Assembly (NCBI GenBank): GCA_037143235.1
Contig: JBAWZC010000002.1
Location: 47,186-111,185 of the forward strand
Source: Candidatus Berkelbacteria bacterium
GTDB lineage: Bacteria; Patescibacteriota; UBA1384; XYA2-FULL-43-10; 1-14-0-10-43-13
DNA: 64,000 bases
Reading direction: 5' to 3'
Shown here piece after piece: positions 16,728-19,623 of the stretch. Every line of letters starts with the position of its first letter. The stretch's first letter is position 1. A program made the position numbers and the translations under genes. Below the pieces are notes generated by a model, which saw nothing but the letters and a program-made list of their open reading frames with translations, ran no database searches and was not told the DNA's origin.

Positions 16728-16901
16728 ATGAAATACGAATTTTTAACAGTGGAAGAAACAGCGAAAATTCTCAAGGTTACTAAGATGACCATTTATCGCT
16801 ATATCAAGGCTGGCAAGCTGACGGCTTATAAAGTTGGTAAAGATTTTAGGATAAACAAAGAAGAATTTGATAAGTTTTTAAATGAAATACGAAAGGGATA
16901 A
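16728..16901 (+). CDS. excisionase-family helix-turn-helix DNA-binding protein (Xis-like)
   Basis: 57 aa: MKYEFLTVEETAKILKVTKMTIYRYIKAGKLTAYKVGKDFRINKEEFDKFL, the classic excisionase/MerR-type HTH signature. Below the 60-aa cutoff of the ORF track. Confidence 0.6.
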   Translation: MKYEFLTVEETAKILKVTKMTIYRYIKAGKLTAYKVGKDFRINKEEFDKFLNEIRKG

Positions 16902-16904
16902 TTT

Positions 16905-17339
16905 ATGGATACATTATTTTTGATTATTACAGCACTTGGGGCTTTGGTTATTGGTATTCCATTGCTAATCTTTGTTTTAATCCCTTTGTGGTATATATGC
17001 ATTCCAATTATATTTACTATTCTACTTGGCTGGATTGGTTTATTTTTCGGAATTGGATTGGTGACTGTAATCTTCTGTGTTAAATGGATATTAACCGATA
17101 ATAACGACAAAGAAAAAGCACCGACAAAAAAGGAAGATAAACCAGATTCCAAAAAAGCATTTTTAGCTTTTATTACGGTATTCAGTATTTGGGGATTATC
17201 AAATTGGCTCTTCACTGATATTTTAGTACGACTTCACGGAACAAATAACGATTCAGACGGTTTGCTAATAATTATTTTTATGGCAGTGTCTGGCTTTGCC
17301 AGCTATAAGGTTGGGCAAAAAATGATAGAGGCCAAATAG
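16905..17339 (+). CDS. membrane protein (4 TM), unknown function
   Basis: 144 aa, hydrophobic, with a Lys-rich loop. Confidence 0.45.
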   Translation: MDTLFLIITALGALVIGIPLLIFVLIPLWYICIPIIFTILLGWIGLFFGIGLVTVIFCVKWILTDNNDKEKAPTKKEDKPDSKKAFLAFITVFSIWGLSNWLFTDILVRLHGTNNDSDGLLIIIFMAVSGFASYKVGQKMIEAK

Positions 17340-17343
17340 CAGA

Positions 17344-17655
17344 ATGAAATCAATTATTCTTGCCAGAGTATCAACAGAAGACCAAAAAGAGGCTGGCAAT
17401 TCATTGCCCACTCAAATTAAGCGTCTGAAAGATTATTGCAAAAGAAAAGATTTGGAGGTTATCAAAAAATTCAGCTTTGACGAATCAGCCTATAAAACCA
17501 AAAGAGATAAGTTCGATCGTATTCTTGAGTATCCGAAAGGCAACAAAGTAAAGATTGCTGTTTGCTTTGATAAGGTTGATTACTTTTCTAGAGCACCTGG
17601 GGACGCTCCCCAATTAGATACGGTTTTTGCAATAAGAAAATTTCTCAGAGAATAA
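17344..17655 (+). pseudogene. serine recombinase (resolvase/invertase) N-terminal fragment, truncated
   Basis: 103 aa, MKSIILARVSTEDQ..., the catalytic Ser motif (Y/L-ARVST-x2-Q) of serine recombinases. The ORF ends after about half the catalytic domain and lacks a DNA-binding domain. Confidence 0.6.
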
Positions 17656-17674
17656 CTCGATCAGTTGACCATCA

Positions 17675-17708
17675 AAACAAACACCTCACATGTATGAGGT
17701 GTTTGTTT
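17675..17708. terminator. conserved hairpin terminator (same family as 15769, 40017, 42433)
   Basis: aaacaaacacctcacatgtatgaggtgtttgtttt with a 14-bp perfect stem. Confidence 0.6.
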
Positions 17709-17736
17709 TGGCAGAGGCAAGAGGAATCGAACCCCT
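17709..17736 (-). other. tRNA 3' fragment (T-arm + acceptor 3' strand + CCA), possibly an att-site duplication or the 3' exon of a split tRNA
   Basis: Minus strand AGGGG-TTCGATT-CCTCT-TGCCTCT-G-CCA. No contiguous D or anticodon arm upstream. Confidence 0.4.
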
Positions 17737-17777
17737 AATAAAGGTTTTGCCTGTCCTCCGTAGCATTAAATCAATTT

Positions 17778-17851
17778 TGGCAGGCCTTAGAGGAGTCGGA
17801 CCTCTGACTAAGGTTTTGGAGACCTTCGTTATACCGCTTAACTAAAGGCCT
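17778..17851 (-). tRNA. tRNA-Trp(CCA)-like, 74 nt, unusual T-loop
   Basis: Hand fold: AGGCCTT/TA/GTTA-AGCGGTA-TAAC/G/AAGGT-CTCCAAA-ACCTT/AGTC/AGAGG-TCCGACT-CCTCT/AAGGCCT/G/CCA. Anticodon CCA. The T-loop has C at position 55. Confidence 0.5.
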
Positions 17852-17880
17852 ATCAAAATTGATTTGAGAAGGAGGAGAGA

Positions 17881-17939
17881 CCTCCAGCCTACACTTCAAG
17901 CTACGGCCGGCAAGCCGTTATACCATTTAACTATACCCC
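17881..17939 (-). other. tRNA 5'-half-like sequence (acceptor + D-arm) lacking a contiguous anticodon/T arm
   Basis: Minus strand AGGGGTA-TA-GTTA-AATGGTA-TAAC-G-GCTTGCCGGCCG... The acceptor strand AGGGGTA can pair (with G-U pairs) with TGCCTCT of the fragment at 17709-17736. Confidence 0.35.
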
Positions 17940-18339
17940 TAAAGACAAGCAATAAGCTTGCAAGCAGTAAGAATTAAGCTGAATACACTTAAACACTTAC
18001 CGGATTACTTGCCACAAAGTGGCCCCTTTGGGGCTTACCAGCCTGTCTTACTTTGTTTCTTTGTGATTGGTGCGAACTTTGCAAGTTTTGCAATACTTTG
18101 GCAGTTCGATCCGCTTGATAACGTCTTGCCCCTTCATACGCTTCTCAGTATGGTAACCTCTGCTTTTGCATGTTTCACATTCCAATGTGATCAATTTTCT
18201 AGCTTCCTTGGCCATGGATTCCTTGTTTCTATTACCCCGGATTTAATCCGGCATCTATTTAATGTTTCTCTGGATCCTGAATCAAGTTCAGGATGACATA
18301 CATTTTTTTGTCCCGCATAGCCCGTAGGGCGACGTGAGA

Positions 18340-18414
18340 TGGAGCCGATGGAGGGAATCGAACCCGCAACCTTCACTTTACAAAAGTGTTGCTCTACCAT
18401 TGAGCTACATCGGC
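18340..18414 (-). tRNA. tRNA-Thr(TGT)
   Basis: GCCGATG/TA/GCTC-AATGGTA-GAGC/A/ACACT-TTTGTAA-AGTGA/AGGTT/GCGGG-TTCGATT-CCCTC/CATCGGC/T/CCA. One mismatch each in the anticodon stem and T stem. Confidence 0.6.
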
Positions 18415-19010
18415 ATTTTAAATTTTTCTATCCACCCAACAATAACCTTAAGCAAATTCTTGTCGGAATATCTCAAAGAGGCCGTCCCATACTTTGATAT
18501 TTTCTTGTAACTTCCATTTGAATGGGCGTGACAATATGTTTTGCTAAACTGGCTTGTGGGAATTTTCGTACGATCAGACCAATATTTTTTCAGCTCTATC
18601 TCGTTTTGGTCATCGTATATATGAAGCAATAACCTAAGCCTCTGCTCCGACACTCCACATATCTCTCTCAAAAAACGAAGGAAATAACTCACCATATTAG
18701 GATCACTGTTGCTAAAAACAACACTATTGCCGTCTTTCGTGCCCTCGCCCCAGTACAGCATAACTCCAGCTATGCGCAAAACCTCTTGTTCTGGAGTTAA
18801 ATTTGTCAACACATTGCAAGAGTGTCTTCCAAATTTTGTTTCATGCAACAATCGACTTGCACTACTGTGATCCCTTCTGGGAACATTGCCAGCTATCAGC
18901 ACCTGATTTATACGAGACGATCCGATTCCAATTTTATCAGAAATTTGCTTGACTGAAAAACCAGACTGGTACATTTCAACGATTAATTTTGTTTCATGCA
19001 TACTTAACAT
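18405..19010 (-). CDS. HTH-domain protein, possible degenerate LAGLIDADG-type homing endonuclease
   Basis: 201 aa with an N-terminal HTH (FSVKQISDKIGIGSSRINQVL). MLYWGEGTKDGNSVVF resembles a LAGLIDADG/GDG motif. It sits between tRNA genes and its 5' end overlaps tRNA-Thr by 10 nt. Confidence 0.4.
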   Translation of the reverse strand: MLSMHETKLIVEMYQSGFSVKQISDKIGIGSSRINQVLIAGNVPRRDHSSASRLLHETKFGRHSCNVLTNLTPEQEVLRIAGVMLYWGEGTKDGNSVVFSNSDPNMVSYFLRFLREICGVSEQRLRLLLHIYDDQNEIELKKYWSDRTKIPTSQFSKTYCHAHSNGSYKKISKYGTASLRYSDKNLLKVIVGWIEKFKMPM

Positions 19011-19059: not shown

Positions 19060-19145
19060 TGGTGCTGGGAGCAGGATTCGAACCTACGAAGGCATAAGCC
19101 GCCTGATTTACAGTCAGGTGCATTTGACCGCTTTGCTATCCCAGC
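19060..19145 (-). tRNA. tRNA-Tyr(GTA), long variable arm
   Basis: GCTGGGA/TA/GCAA-AGCGGTCAAA-TGC/ACCTGA-CTGTAAA-TCAGG/CGGCTTATGCCTTCG/TAGGT-TCGAATC-CTGC/TCCCAGC/A/CCA. Confidence 0.65.
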
Positions 19146-19373
19146 ATGCATCTCGCATTTCACCATTTCATCACTTTTTCATTTAAACATTTATAAATAA
19201 ATGACTAAATGATTAATTGATTAAATGGATGCATTTGGCCCTTCGACAAACTCAGGGTCATTCGACTTTACGACCAAGTTAATTAACTCACAGAATGGTT
19301 CACCATCCCTCGACCATGAGCCTCTCGGGATCGAATGGTGAGCGAGAGACCAGATTGTTGGTCTCGAGTCGAA

Positions 19374-19449
19374 TGGAGCCGTTGACGGGAATTGGACCCG
19401 TGACCTCGCCCTTACCAAGGGCGTGCTCTACCAACTGAGCTACAACGGC
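19374..19449 (-). tRNA. tRNA-Thr(GGT)
   Basis: GCCGTTG/TA/GCTC-AGTTGGTA-GAGC/A/CGCCC-TTGGTAA-GGGCG/AGGTC/ACGGG-TCCAATT-CCCGT/CAACGGC/T/CCA. All stems are perfect. The T-loop has C at position 55. Confidence 0.7.
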
Positions 19450-19623
19450 GCTAGGCAACTGACGAGCAGGCCTGCCAACTGCTCCGCATCAGCCTATGGT
19501 TGAGCAGGAGTCCCTGCTTCCACACAGTGGAATGCGGGAAGCTACAACGGCGGGAGTGGTCGACAACGACAACAAAAAAAATTATAGCATTTTATCCGCT
19601 TTCATTCAACCTCTGTCAGAAAT

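What the first reader, a model, noticed from the sequence alone, without database searches (positions are those of the whole stretch)
18405..19010. HTH / LAGLIDADG-like ORF embedded between tRNA genes and overlapping the tRNA-Thr 5' end
The 201-aa protein has a clear N-terminal HTH. A segment (LYWGEGTKDGNSVVFSNSD) resembles the LAGLIDADG catalytic motif of homing endonucleases. It lies inside the tRNA cluster next to the disrupted tRNA and unexplained structured RNA. That is the typical context for intron- or intein-associated homing endonucleases, and CPR genomes are known for intron-rich RNA genes. Its first codons overlap the 5' end of tRNA-Thr(TGT) by 10 nt on the same strand.
Basis: inference. 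Interest (0 to 1): 0.5.

Follow-up and report, generated by a model that had tools for sequence, protein, structure and literature searches.

The report
Nuclease-like gene abutting a tRNA gene
The ORF is a real, conserved gene for a DNA-binding protein with a distant homing-endonuclease-like domain. It belongs to a large unannotated family that almost always sits just in front of a tRNA gene in candidate-phyla bacteria, Omnitrophota and large phages, often next to tRNA genes split by self-splicing introns that carry no gene of their own.

Summary

It is not inside an intron: the flanking tRNA-Tyr and tRNA-Thr(UGU) are intact and the window holds no group I intron. It is the last codons that overlap tRNA-Thr, not the first. 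The stop codon is tRNA nucleotides 8-10.

At least 581 species genomes carry relatives. In 68 of 74 loci a same-strand tRNA (Thr-UGU, Tyr or Thr-GGU) starts 0-30 nt after the last conserved helix. Relatives with the same tRNA order have an empty spacer. Canonical LAGLIDADG_3 and PD-(D/E)XK nuclease genes occupy the same niche elsewhere. [quoted passage not shown]

Best reading: a free-standing homing-endonuclease-type gene specialised on tRNA genes. Nuclease activity, target site and mobility are inferred, not shown.

The parts
18405..19010 (-). 201-aa ORF: HTH plus LAGLIDADG-like domain, free-standing homing-endonuclease-type gene
   Evidence: ORF listing. Homologues. dN/dS 0.066 against L001. 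AF2 pLDDT 92.
18831..19001 (-). N-terminal helix-turn-helix region (residues about 4-60, four helices)
18420..18794 (-). C-terminal LAGLIDADG-like domain (residues 73-197)
18735..18761 (-). Motif M-L-Y-W-G-E-G-T-K (residues 84-92) at the C-terminal end of helix 73-89. E89 (codon 18744-18746) is the only invariant acidic residue.
   Evidence: Invariant columns. Helix ends at E89 and is followed by G90 and a strand. G-E-G aligns with the canonical G-D-G. It was two residues out of register.
18405..18414 (-). 10-nt overlap of the ORF's 3' end with the tRNA-Thr(UGU) 5' end. The stop codon TAG is tRNA U8-A9-G10.
   Evidence: Sequence and coordinates. The same -10 junction recurs at Thr(UGU), Tyr and Thr(GGU) genes in other lineages and in phages.
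18340..18414 (-). tRNA-Thr(UGU), intact, immediately downstream of the ORF
   Evidence: ARAGORN. Rfam 67.6 bits.
19060..19145 (-). tRNA-Tyr(GUA), intact and intron-less, 49 nt upstream of the ORF start
   Evidence: ARAGORN. Rfam 62.4 bits.
19374..19449 (-). tRNA-Thr(GGU), first tRNA of the cluster
   Evidence: ARAGORN. Rfam 70.1 bits.
19581..19609 (-). Promoter-like site (TTGAAT-17-TATAAT with TG) upstream of the whole tRNA cluster. Candidate promoter for co-transcription of the tRNAs and the ORF.
   Evidence: Consensus scan: 10/12 match, but the number of sites in the region is not above chance. No minus-strand terminator-like site between it and rpmG.

Best explanation
The ORF encodes a free-standing (not intron-embedded) homing-endonuclease-type protein. 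It has an N-terminal HTH DNA-binding module fused to one divergent LAGLIDADG-derived domain that keeps a single catalytic-type acidic residue, E89.

Proposed mechanism (inferred):
- The gene is transcribed as part of the tRNA operon.
- The protein dimerises through the LAGLIDADG-like helix, as single-motif enzymes such as I-CreI do.
- It cuts alleles of the tRNA locus that lack the gene.
- Recombinational repair then copies the gene into the spacer directly 5' of the tRNA gene.

The insertion point at the tRNA's 5' boundary keeps the tRNA intact. It also changes the leader/acceptor side of the presumed target, which would protect the carrier. [quoted passage not shown] That is the arrangement expected for collaborative (trans) homing of gene plus intron. 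The window's copy has no intron partner.

Shown: gene reality, selection, domain architecture, family distribution, tight tRNA linkage, empty sites, and other nuclease genes in the same niche.
Inferred: nuclease activity, dimerisation, target site, mobility.
For: Fold and homology:
- AF2 pLDDT is 92 (full length) and 94 (domain).
- hhalign to canonical CPR HTH-LAGLIDADG_3 proteins: 95.5%, E 1.3e-8 over 181 columns. Domain-only: P 0.005 with GEG on GDG.
- E89-G90 are invariant.

Selection: dN/dS 0.066.

Niche:
- In 68 of 74 loci a same-strand tRNA starts 0-30 nt after the last helix.
- Protein clades follow the identity of the downstream tRNA whatever the tRNA order or upstream neighbour.
- One locus holds two paralogues in two spacers.

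Patchiness:
- Of 26 metagenomic contigs sharing an identical 40-nt tRNA-Thr(UGU) core and with enough upstream sequence, only one has the ORF upstream.
- L122, L134, L144 and L133 have the window's tRNA order, but the Tyr-Thr spacer is only about 85-113 nt.

Other nuclease genes in the same niche:
- Canonical HTH-LAGLIDADG_3 genes abut tRNA-Tyr (L137, L149, L151-L154), and a PDDEXK_5 gene does so in L138.

Phage relatives: 35 distant homologues, nearly all inside tRNA arrays, several with the same 0 to -15 nt junction.

Intron association:
- ORF-less group I introns split the adjacent tRNA-Tyr in about 30 loci, or tRNA-Thr(GGU) in L019, L121, L132, L129 and L147.

Precedents:
- T4 SegB is a free-standing endonuclease in a tRNA cluster that recognises a tRNA motif (PMC2330249).
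- Collaborative and intron-less homing are reviewed in PMC3984707.
Against: - No curated LAGLIDADG model matches the window protein, appears among the 25 most-matched families of the 41 aligned members, or hits the 10 viral relatives scanned.
- Foldseek ranks OmpA-like domains first, although with poor TM (0.37-0.43), and shows no LAGLIDADG chain in the top 50 with the domain-only model and only one weak one (7qss, rank 40) with the full-length model.
- Domain-only profile evidence is weak: E 0.04 with the small profile, 0.005 with the large one.
- The first hhalign put E89 two residues out of register.
- The strand order differs from the textbook alpha-beta-beta-alpha-beta-beta-alpha fold: a helix lies between strands 3 and 4. 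The second LAGLIDADG motif of the canonical relatives is missing.
- ORF-bearing and ORF-less alleles share identical tRNA-Thr(UGU) positions 8-47. Self-protection is therefore unexplained unless the target extends into the leader.
- The empty sites come from related, not conspecific, organisms, so recent mobility is not shown.
- Strong purifying selection and universally intact copies would also fit a host function.
- ORF GC (38.9%) is within 1 sd of the window, so there is no sign of recent import.
Confidence: 0.6

Rival explanations
1. A domesticated, non-cutting descendant of a LAGLIDADG endonuclease. It would use its HTH and the LAGLIDADG saddle to bind DNA or RNA. It could act as a WhiA-like regulator of the tRNA/rpmG operon, or as a maturase or chaperone for structured RNAs (tRNA precursors, group I introns) made from the same transcript.
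For: - Only one LAGLIDADG-type motif remains and it is atypical (MLYWGEG). The second motif of the canonical relatives is lost.
- Purifying selection is very strong (dN/dS 0.066).
- Among the 80 genome loci kept, no copy showed a frameshift or internal stop; most gave a single collinear match, though decayed copies would have been missed by the search.
- The location is fixed in one operon across two phyla.
- There is frequent adjacency to group I introns, and LAGLIDADG maturases are an established class (own knowledge).
Against: - E89-G90 are invariant at the catalytic position, whereas WhiA has lost these residues (own knowledge of WhiA).
- Distribution is patchy among organisms with identical tRNA-Thr cores, and empty spacers exist.
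- The gene occupies at least five different spacer types, and one operon has two paralogues.
- Canonical LAGLIDADG_3 genes with both catalytic Asp invariant, and a PD-(D/E)XK nuclease gene, fill the same niche.
- Relatives lie in phage tRNA arrays.
- Many carriers, including this window, have no intron nearby.
Confidence: 0.22
2. An ordinary HTH transcription factor whose C-terminal alpha/beta domain is unrelated to LAGLIDADG, for example an OmpA-like or other ligand-binding fold. The LAGLIDADG resemblance would be fortuitous.
For: - Foldseek's best matches for both models are OmpA-like domains, E down to 2.6e-4.
- Pfam, NCBIfam and PHROGs see only HTH.
- Most of the full-length hhalign score comes from the HTH.
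Against: - The alignment to a canonical LAGLIDADG_3 family is collinear, with the motif in register.
- That canonical family has a homologous HTH and the same genomic niche.
- An ordinary regulator would not be expected to abut a tRNA 5' end in 68 of 74 loci and in phage tRNA arrays.
Confidence: 0.1
3. One reading: an intron- or intein-encoded homing endonuclease sitting inside an intervening sequence of an RNA gene in this window.
For: - The domain is LAGLIDADG-like.
- CPR tRNA and rRNA genes are intron-rich (PMC13011429).
- There are pseudo-tRNA pieces nearby.
Against: - tRNA-Tyr and tRNA-Thr(UGU) on either side are complete.
- Rfam finds no group I intron in the window at gathering threshold, nor at E<=1 around the ORF.
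- In intron-bearing relatives the ORF is upstream of the 5' exon, and the intron (181-290 nt) has no ORF.
Confidence: 0.03

Closest known systems
Canonical HTH-LAGLIDADG_3 proteins of Patescibacteria (PF14528; NCBI name 'LAGLIDADG family homing endonuclease'; alignment A5, e.g. P0272 Yanofskybacteria, P0351 Andersenbacteria, P0359 Woesebacteria)
   Same: - Homologous N-terminal HTH.
- Collinear overall alignment.
- Same niche and orientation: the stop lies between 39 nt inside and 21 nt before the 5' end of tRNA-Tyr.
   Different: - They are about 260 aa with two clear motifs (LLGDG and DTDG, both Asp invariant) and are recognised by Pfam.
- The window's family is about 200 aa and has one atypical motif (MLYWGEG).
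- It lacks the second LAGLIDADG helix and is seen by no curated model.
Phage T4 SegB (GIY-YIG free-standing homing endonuclease in the tRNA gene cluster; PMC2330249)
   Same: - A free-standing nuclease gene lodged between tRNA genes.
- SegB's recognition site contains a conserved tRNA motif, and its homing carries neighbouring tRNA genes along.
- Distant relatives of the window protein also sit in phage tRNA arrays.
   Different: - A different catalytic family (GIY-YIG, not LAGLIDADG-like).
- Phage, not cellular.
- SegB activity and homing are experimentally shown; here they are inferred.
Collaborative (trans) homing: F-CphI beside the ORF-less psbA intron of cyanophage S-PM2, and T4 mobE with I-TevIII (reviewed in PMC3984707; PMC2790892; PMC6083498)
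   Same: [quoted passage not shown] This is the gene arrangement of those systems.
   Different: - The window itself has no intron.
- The hosts are bacteria, not phages.
- The interrupted genes are tRNAs.
- Cleavage at the intron insertion site has not been tested.
- Several carriers have intron-less tRNAs (L028, L050, L056, L060).
Single-motif homodimeric LAGLIDADG enzymes (I-CreI, I-CeuI, I-CvuI, I-Vdi141I)
   Different: - Those are intron-encoded and lack an N-terminal HTH.
- Sequence similarity is not detectable.
- There is an extra helix between strands 3 and 4.
WhiA (two degenerate LAGLIDADG domains plus C-terminal HTH; transcription factor)
   Different: - Domain order is reversed.
- There is a single domain.
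- The acidic residue is retained.
- Distribution is patchy and tRNA-linked rather than a conserved housekeeping locus.

Membership tests
LAGLIDADG homing endonucleases | LAGLIDADG alpha-beta-beta-alpha-beta-beta-alpha core fold | tested here: inconclusive
- Foldseek on the full and domain-only models does not recover them.
- The model has an extra helix between strands 3 and 4.
LAGLIDADG homing endonucleases | Sequence membership: match to curated LAGLIDADG profiles (Pfam LAGLIDADG_1/2/3/WhiA) | tested here: not met
   - No LAGLIDADG family hit the window protein at E<=10.
- None was among the 25 most-matched families for the 41 members.
- None hit the 10 viral relatives.
- PDB sequence searches hit only HTH proteins.
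LAGLIDADG homing endonucleases | Conserved helix motif ending in a catalytic Asp/Glu followed by Gly | tested here: met
   - E89 and G90 are invariant.
- The helix 73-89 ends at E89 in the model.
- The broad-profile hhalign aligns G-E-G with the G-D-G of LAGLIDADG_3 proteins. An earlier alignment was off by two residues.
LAGLIDADG homing endonucleases | Two active sites, from a homodimer or a tandem domain | not testable with these tools
   There is only one motif per chain, and the second motif of the canonical relatives is absent. Dimerisation could not be modelled because the tool predicts monomers only.
LAGLIDADG homing endonucleases | Site-specific DNA cleavage | not testable with these tools
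   Requires biochemistry.
Free-standing homing endonuclease genes (intron-less homing) | Lies between conserved genes, not inside an intron or intein | tested here: met
   The ORF fills the spacer between intact tRNA-Tyr and tRNA-Thr(UGU). The window has no group I intron.
Free-standing homing endonuclease genes (intron-less homing) | Presence/absence polymorphism at an otherwise conserved locus | tested here: met
   - 1 of 26 contigs with an identical 40-nt tRNA-Thr(UGU) core carries the ORF upstream.
- Four contigs with the same tRNA order have an 85-113 nt spacer instead.
- Caveat: these are related lineages, not the same species.
Free-standing homing endonuclease genes (intron-less homing) | The same site is occupied by unrelated nuclease genes in other genomes | tested here: met
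   LAGLIDADG_3 (E 4.8e-13) in L137 and PDDEXK_5 (E 5.6e-32) in L138, both in the Thr(UGU)-Tyr spacer and abutting tRNA-Tyr.
Free-standing homing endonuclease genes (intron-less homing) | Cleaves the gene-less allele and is copied in by repair | not testable with these tools
   No experiment was possible. No conspecific filled/empty pair was available to look for co-conversion tracts.
Intron-encoded homing endonucleases | ORF lies within a group I/II intron or intein | tested here: not met
   for the window. In relatives the ORF is 5' of the split tRNA and the intron is ORF-less.
Collaborative (trans) homing pairs | Free-standing nuclease gene adjacent to an ORF-less intron in the neighbouring gene | tested here: not met
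   Not met in the window, where all four cluster tRNAs are intron-less. Met in about 40 related loci.
WhiA-type regulators | Two degenerate LAGLIDADG domains without catalytic acids, plus a C-terminal HTH | tested here: not met
   The HTH is N-terminal, there is a single domain, and the Glu is invariant. There is no PF14527 or PF02650 hit for the window protein.

The most novel reading that the evidence does not exclude
This unannotated family, together with its canonical HTH-LAGLIDADG_3 cousins, would be a guild of endonucleases specialised on tRNA genes. They would colonise the 5' boundary of the tRNA gene. They would also act as the missing trans-acting mobility engines for the ORF-less group I introns of tRNA-Tyr (35/36) and tRNA-Thr(GGU) (36/37) in Patescibacteria and Omnitrophota. 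A recent survey judged those introns nearly immobile because it looked for endonuclease genes only inside introns (PMC13011429). The same lineage would operate in the tRNA arrays of jumbo phages. With only one catalytic motif and an added HTH, it may represent a new architectural type of LAGLIDADG enzyme.
Probability: 0.3. Interest if true: 0.75.

Novelty: new variant of a known kind. Interest (0 to 1): 0.6.

Why it matters
If the reading is right, a family with thousands of members that every curated library misses can be named and given a testable function (5,225 cluster representatives at E<=1e-10).

It would extend free-standing, tRNA-targeting homing endonucleases from T-even and T5-type phages to cellular genomes of Patescibacteria and Omnitrophota. 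It would also offer a concrete explanation for how ORF-less group I introns in their tRNA genes spread. Published work left that question open.

The family might add a compact HTH plus single-motif scaffold to the LAGLIDADG enzymes used for genome engineering.

There is a practical annotation point as well. The ORFs overlap tRNA genes and read into exons and introns, and the split tRNA-Tyr and tRNA-Thr genes next to them are missed by standard tRNA finders.

Tried and rejected
Negative or uninformative searches
- Pfam, NCBIfam and PHROGs scans of the window protein, Pfam on the 41 family members, and Pfam and PHROGs on 10 viral relatives gave only HTH hits.
- phmmer and hmmsearch against PDB sequences gave only HTH proteins.
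- Foldseek against PDB, with the full and the domain-only model, gave OmpA-like top hits with TM below 0.45. I judged these not to be a shared fold; they do not confirm LAGLIDADG either.
- The afdb50 fold library was unavailable.

Introns and paralogues in the window
- Rfam found no group I intron in the window.
- ARAGORN's intron mode gave only chimeric false calls in the window.
- tblastn found no paralogues in the window.
- There are no nuclease-like ORFs near the two tRNA-Pro genes.

Models tested and dropped
- 'Cassette carries a copy of the tRNA head' was meant to explain the 12-nt tRNA-head duplicates. It is rejected: 0 of 46 ORF-bearing loci have a head-like 12-mer upstream of the ORF, with 0.3 expected.
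- 'Self-immunity by a variant anticodon arm': the arm CAGACTGTAAATCTG shared by all intron-bearing tRNA-Tyr genes is rarer in ORF-bearing intron-less genes (1/36) than in the mostly ORF-less metagenomic set (6/28). Fisher p is 0.037 and the comparison is confounded by phylogeny, so I do not rely on it.
- For the window type, polymorphism within tRNA-Thr positions 8-47 is excluded.

Other checks
- The nearby 'structured RNAs' fold no better, or only marginally better, than shuffles (z -2.0, -1.0, -0.5).
- There is no GC anomaly.
- Literature searches found no prior description of this family or of its tRNA linkage in the held library.
Full report
THE OBSERVATION

The window has an ATG-started ORF of 201 codons at 18405..19010 on the minus strand. 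ARAGORN and Rfam place it inside a same-strand tRNA cluster: tRNA-Thr(GGU) 19374-19449, tRNA-Tyr(GUA) 19060-19145, the ORF, tRNA-Thr(UGU) 18340-18414, a 55-aa L33 gene (rpmG, 18048-18215) and tRNA-Trp 17778-17851. The ORF fills 606 of the 645 nt between tRNA-Tyr and tRNA-Thr(UGU).

It is the ORF's 3' end that overlaps. The stop codon TAG (18405-18407) is tRNA nucleotides U8-A9-G10.

A promoter-like site with a 10/12 match and an extended -10 element lies upstream of the whole cluster at 19609-19581. No minus-strand terminator-like site follows before rpmG. Co-transcription with the tRNAs is therefore plausible but not shown.

IS IT A GENE?

Yes.
- A sequence search found 156 homologues, all about 200 aa and all unnamed.
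- An exhaustive profile search found 761, 5,225 and 12,837 cluster representatives at E<=1e-30, 1e-10 and 1e-3. The weakest tier includes HTH-only matches.
- Against the closest relative (L001, 90% amino-acid identity), dS is 0.81 and dN 0.054, so dN/dS is 0.066.
- ORF GC (38.9%) is within one sd of the window mean.

WHAT THE PROTEIN IS

The family alignment has eight invariant residues: Y86, W87, E89, G90, N101, W144, G175 and L186. It also has a conserved block G-x-M-L-Y-W-G-E-G-x-K ... F-S-N-S-D-P.

Curated libraries see only a weak N-terminal HTH. PDB sequence searches agree.

AlphaFold2 gives confident models: pLDDT 92 for the full length and 94 for residues 66-201. The models show four N-terminal helices, then helix 73-89, a short hairpin, helix, strand, helix, two strands and a final helix.

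Evidence for a LAGLIDADG relationship:
- While looking at ORF-less relatives I found a Pfam-recognised HTH-LAGLIDADG_3 protein in the same genomic position (L137, PF14528, E 4.8e-13). Its family has at least 628 members.
- An alignment of that family (A5) matches the window's family at 95.5% probability, E 1.3e-8, over 181 collinear columns.
- With a broader family profile (279 sequences, Neff 5.8), the domain-only comparison gives P 0.005. G88-E89-G90 then aligns exactly with the canonical G-D-G, with Y-W as a two-residue insertion.

Evidence that weakens it:
- Foldseek does not agree. With either model its top hits are OmpA-like domains (E down to 2.6e-4) but with TM 0.37-0.43 and rmsd about 7 A. 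LAGLIDADG chains are absent from the top 50 with the domain-only model, and the full-length model shows just one, weakly (7qss, rank 40, E 0.18).
- Much of the full-length hhalign score comes from the HTH. Against the single L137 protein sequence only the HTH region aligned, E 1.2e-4.
- The domain alone with the small profile gives only E 0.04.

In the alignments the second LAGLIDADG helix of the canonical proteins has no counterpart in this family.

My reading is that the domain derives from LAGLIDADG, with probability about 0.8. It keeps one catalytic-type acid and has a modified topology.

WHERE THE FAMILY LIVES

This is the strongest result.
- Across 80 genome loci plus the window, every locus holds the gene in or beside the Thr(UGU)/Tyr/Gly/Thr(GGU)/Trp tRNA cluster, on the tRNA strand.
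- I measured from the codon aligned with residue 197. A same-strand tRNA begins 0-30 nt downstream in 68 of the 74 cases that have a downstream tRNA.
- Of the remaining eight ORFs, five have none within 3 kb and three run off a contig end.
- The exact -10 junction, where the stop codon is tRNA U8A9G10, recurs at Thr(UGU), Tyr and Thr(GGU) genes in different lineages.
- In a neighbour-joining tree the protein clades follow the identity of the downstream tRNA. There is a Thr-UGU clade that includes the window, a CPR Tyr clade with a Thr-GGU subclade, and an Omnitrophota Tyr clade. This holds whatever the order of the tRNAs or the upstream neighbour.
- One locus (L029) has two paralogues in two spacers of one operon.
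- Thirty-five distant relatives (21-38% identity) occur in viral contigs, many of them 100 kb or longer. Nearly all lie inside tRNA arrays. Several end between 15 nt inside and 12 nt before the next tRNA, which can be Val, Cys, Leu, His or Lys.
- The canonical HTH-LAGLIDADG_3 family sits in the same place. It abuts tRNA-Tyr in all five further loci sampled, from three proteins, including a lone tRNA-Tyr outside any cluster.

PRESENCE AND ABSENCE

I scanned metagenomes for the 40-nt tRNA-Thr(UGU) core shared by the window, L001 and L002, and obtained 33 contigs.
- Of the 26 with at least 700 nt upstream, only one (L140, essentially L001) has the ORF upstream of tRNA-Thr(UGU).
- L122, L134, L144 and L133 have the window's tRNA order. 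Their Tyr-to-Thr(UGU) spacers are about 113 or 85 nt, compared with 645 nt in the window.
- In other contigs the equivalent spacers hold a canonical LAGLIDADG_3 gene (L137), a PD-(D/E)XK gene of family PF11645 (L138, E 5.6e-32), a PaaX/Cas2-like gene (L135), or more distant family members (L121, L126, L129, L131).

Taken together, empty sites, filled sites and different nuclease genes at one site form the pattern of a homing-endonuclease hot spot. The empty alleles come from related lineages, not the same species, so recent movement is not demonstrated.

THE INTRON CONNECTION

The window has no group I intron. In the relatives, however:
- In 10 of 10 and then 10 of 20 scanned loci, Rfam finds a group I intron (75-107 bits) right after the ORF.
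- Reading L032 shows that the intron splits tRNA-Tyr(GUA) between anticodon positions 35 and 36. The 5' exon ends ...CUGU, the intron ends in G, and the 3' exon starts AAAUCUG.
- The intron carries no ORF. The family ORF lies upstream of the 5' exon and reads into it.
- This holds for about 27 Omnitrophota-type loci and for CPR loci L053 and L062. L011 and L022 have the split tRNA-Tyr one gene further on.
- In L019 (a complete Wolfebacteria genome) and in L121, L132, L129 and L147, the ORF precedes a tRNA-Thr(GGU) split at 36/37 by a divergent intron that RF00028 misses.

Both intron types were recently catalogued in Patescibacteria. That study searched for endonuclease genes only inside introns and concluded that mobility is limited (PMC13011429). 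An ORF-less intron next to a free-standing nuclease gene is the arrangement of collaborative or trans homing (PMC3984707). Four Omnitrophota-type carriers (L028, L050, L056, L060) and most CPR carriers have intron-less tRNAs. The gene therefore does not depend on an intron.

MECHANISM

Shown: the architecture, the selection, the tRNA linkage, the patchiness, and the shared niche with bona fide nuclease genes.

Inferred:
- The protein dimerises through helix 73-89, as single-motif LAGLIDADG enzymes do.
- It cuts alleles that lack it, and repair copies it in.

One data-based constraint applies. ORF-bearing and ORF-less alleles have identical tRNA-Thr(UGU) positions 8-47. If the enzyme cuts this locus, self-protection cannot come from polymorphism there. 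The simplest alternative is a target that spans the leader/acceptor boundary, which the insertion itself rewrites.

T4 SegB is a precedent: a free-standing endonuclease in a tRNA cluster whose site includes a conserved tRNA motif (PMC2330249).

In the -10 arrangement, RNase P processing of the tRNA would remove the ORF's stop codon. This is a possible brake on expression and is speculative.

RIVALS

- Domesticated binder (0.22). A WhiA-like regulator or RNA maturase remains possible, given the atypical single motif and the strong selection.
- Unrelated HTH regulator (0.10). This rests mainly on Foldseek's poor-quality matches.
- True intron-encoded endonuclease. This is excluded for this window.

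VERDICT

The finding is real and the LAGLIDADG idea is partly right. The gene is free-standing, not intron-borne. Its family-wide attachment to tRNA 5' ends, its presence in phage tRNA arrays and its adjacency to ORF-less tRNA introns are, as far as the held literature shows, undescribed.

I rate it a new variant of a known kind, with interest 0.6.

Noticed in passing
window 16728-17760: Remnant of an integrative element beside tRNA-Trp. It consists of an excisionase-type HTH ORF (16728-16901, +), a truncated serine-recombinase N-terminus (17344-17655, +, 103 aa) and, on the minus strand, a tRNA 3' fragment at about 17700-17760 that is 75% identical to the 3' half of tRNA-Trp (repeat D2).
   Followed up: partly
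window 17860-17940 (minus strand): A pseudo-tRNA between rpmG and tRNA-Trp. Its first 26 nt are 81% identical to the 5' part of tRNA-Trp (repeat D4). ARAGORN and Rfam do not call it, and its fold is no better than shuffles (z -0.5).
   Followed up: partly
window 19450-19551 (minus strand); also L026 2873-2953, L028 2704-2779, L033 6190-6250, L058 3854-3911, L065 3858-3951, L070 3974-4095: Directly upstream of an intact tRNA (Thr, Gly or Pro) lies an exact or near-exact copy of that tRNA's first 12 nt, followed by an unrelated 45-117 nt stretch. In the window, L065 and L070 this is an insert of about 58-66 nt followed by D-arm-like sequence. The duplication always ends at tRNA position 12|13. 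The window's copy is absent from its closest relative, L001. The origin is unknown. A model linking these copies to the ORF cassette was tested and rejected.
   Followed up: partly
window 19232-19373 (minus strand): A segment of about 140 nt after tRNA-Thr(GGU) that the closest relative, L001, lacks. Its predicted fold is only marginally better than shuffles (z -2.0), and there is no Rfam match.
   Followed up: partly
L032 3593-3884 and about 26 other Omnitrophota-type loci; CPR loci L011, L022, L053, L062: tRNA-Tyr(GUA) genes are split at anticodon position 35/36 by ORF-less group I introns of 181-290 nt. Standard ARAGORN misses them. All intron-bearing copies share the anticodon arm CAGACUGU|AAAUCUG. 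The held literature reports this intron in a single Patescibacteria genome, and my search found no report of tRNA group I introns in Omnitrophota.
   Followed up: partly
L019 3660-3939; L121, L132, L129, L147 (about 250-260 nt, starting about 920-1130 nt after the tRNA-Thr(UGU) start): tRNA-Thr(GGU) genes are split at 36/37 by a divergent group-I-like intron of about 180-206 nt that RF00028 does not detect. Each lies just downstream of a family ORF: 62 nt away in L019, and with the -10 overlap in the other four.
   Followed up: partly
L137, L138, L135 (oriented copies; spacer between tRNA-Thr(UGU) and tRNA-Tyr): The same spacer holds other genes: a canonical HTH-LAGLIDADG_3 gene (262 aa), a PD-(D/E)XK PF11645 gene (131 aa) and a PaaX/Cas2-like gene (180 aa). 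The first two abut tRNA-Tyr.
   Followed up: yes
L131 (oriented copy, ORF 290-1006 relative to the tRNA-Thr(UGU) start): A distant family member (238 aa) ends inside the 5' end of tRNA-Trp, so the family also uses tRNA-Trp as its downstream partner.
   Followed up: no
P0131, P0155, P0180, P0188, P0193, P0195 and others: Proteins of 560-1,136 aa match the family profile through 7-15 tandem repeats of the HTH region only. They are probably unrelated multi-HTH proteins that inflate the E<=1e-3 count.
   Followed up: no
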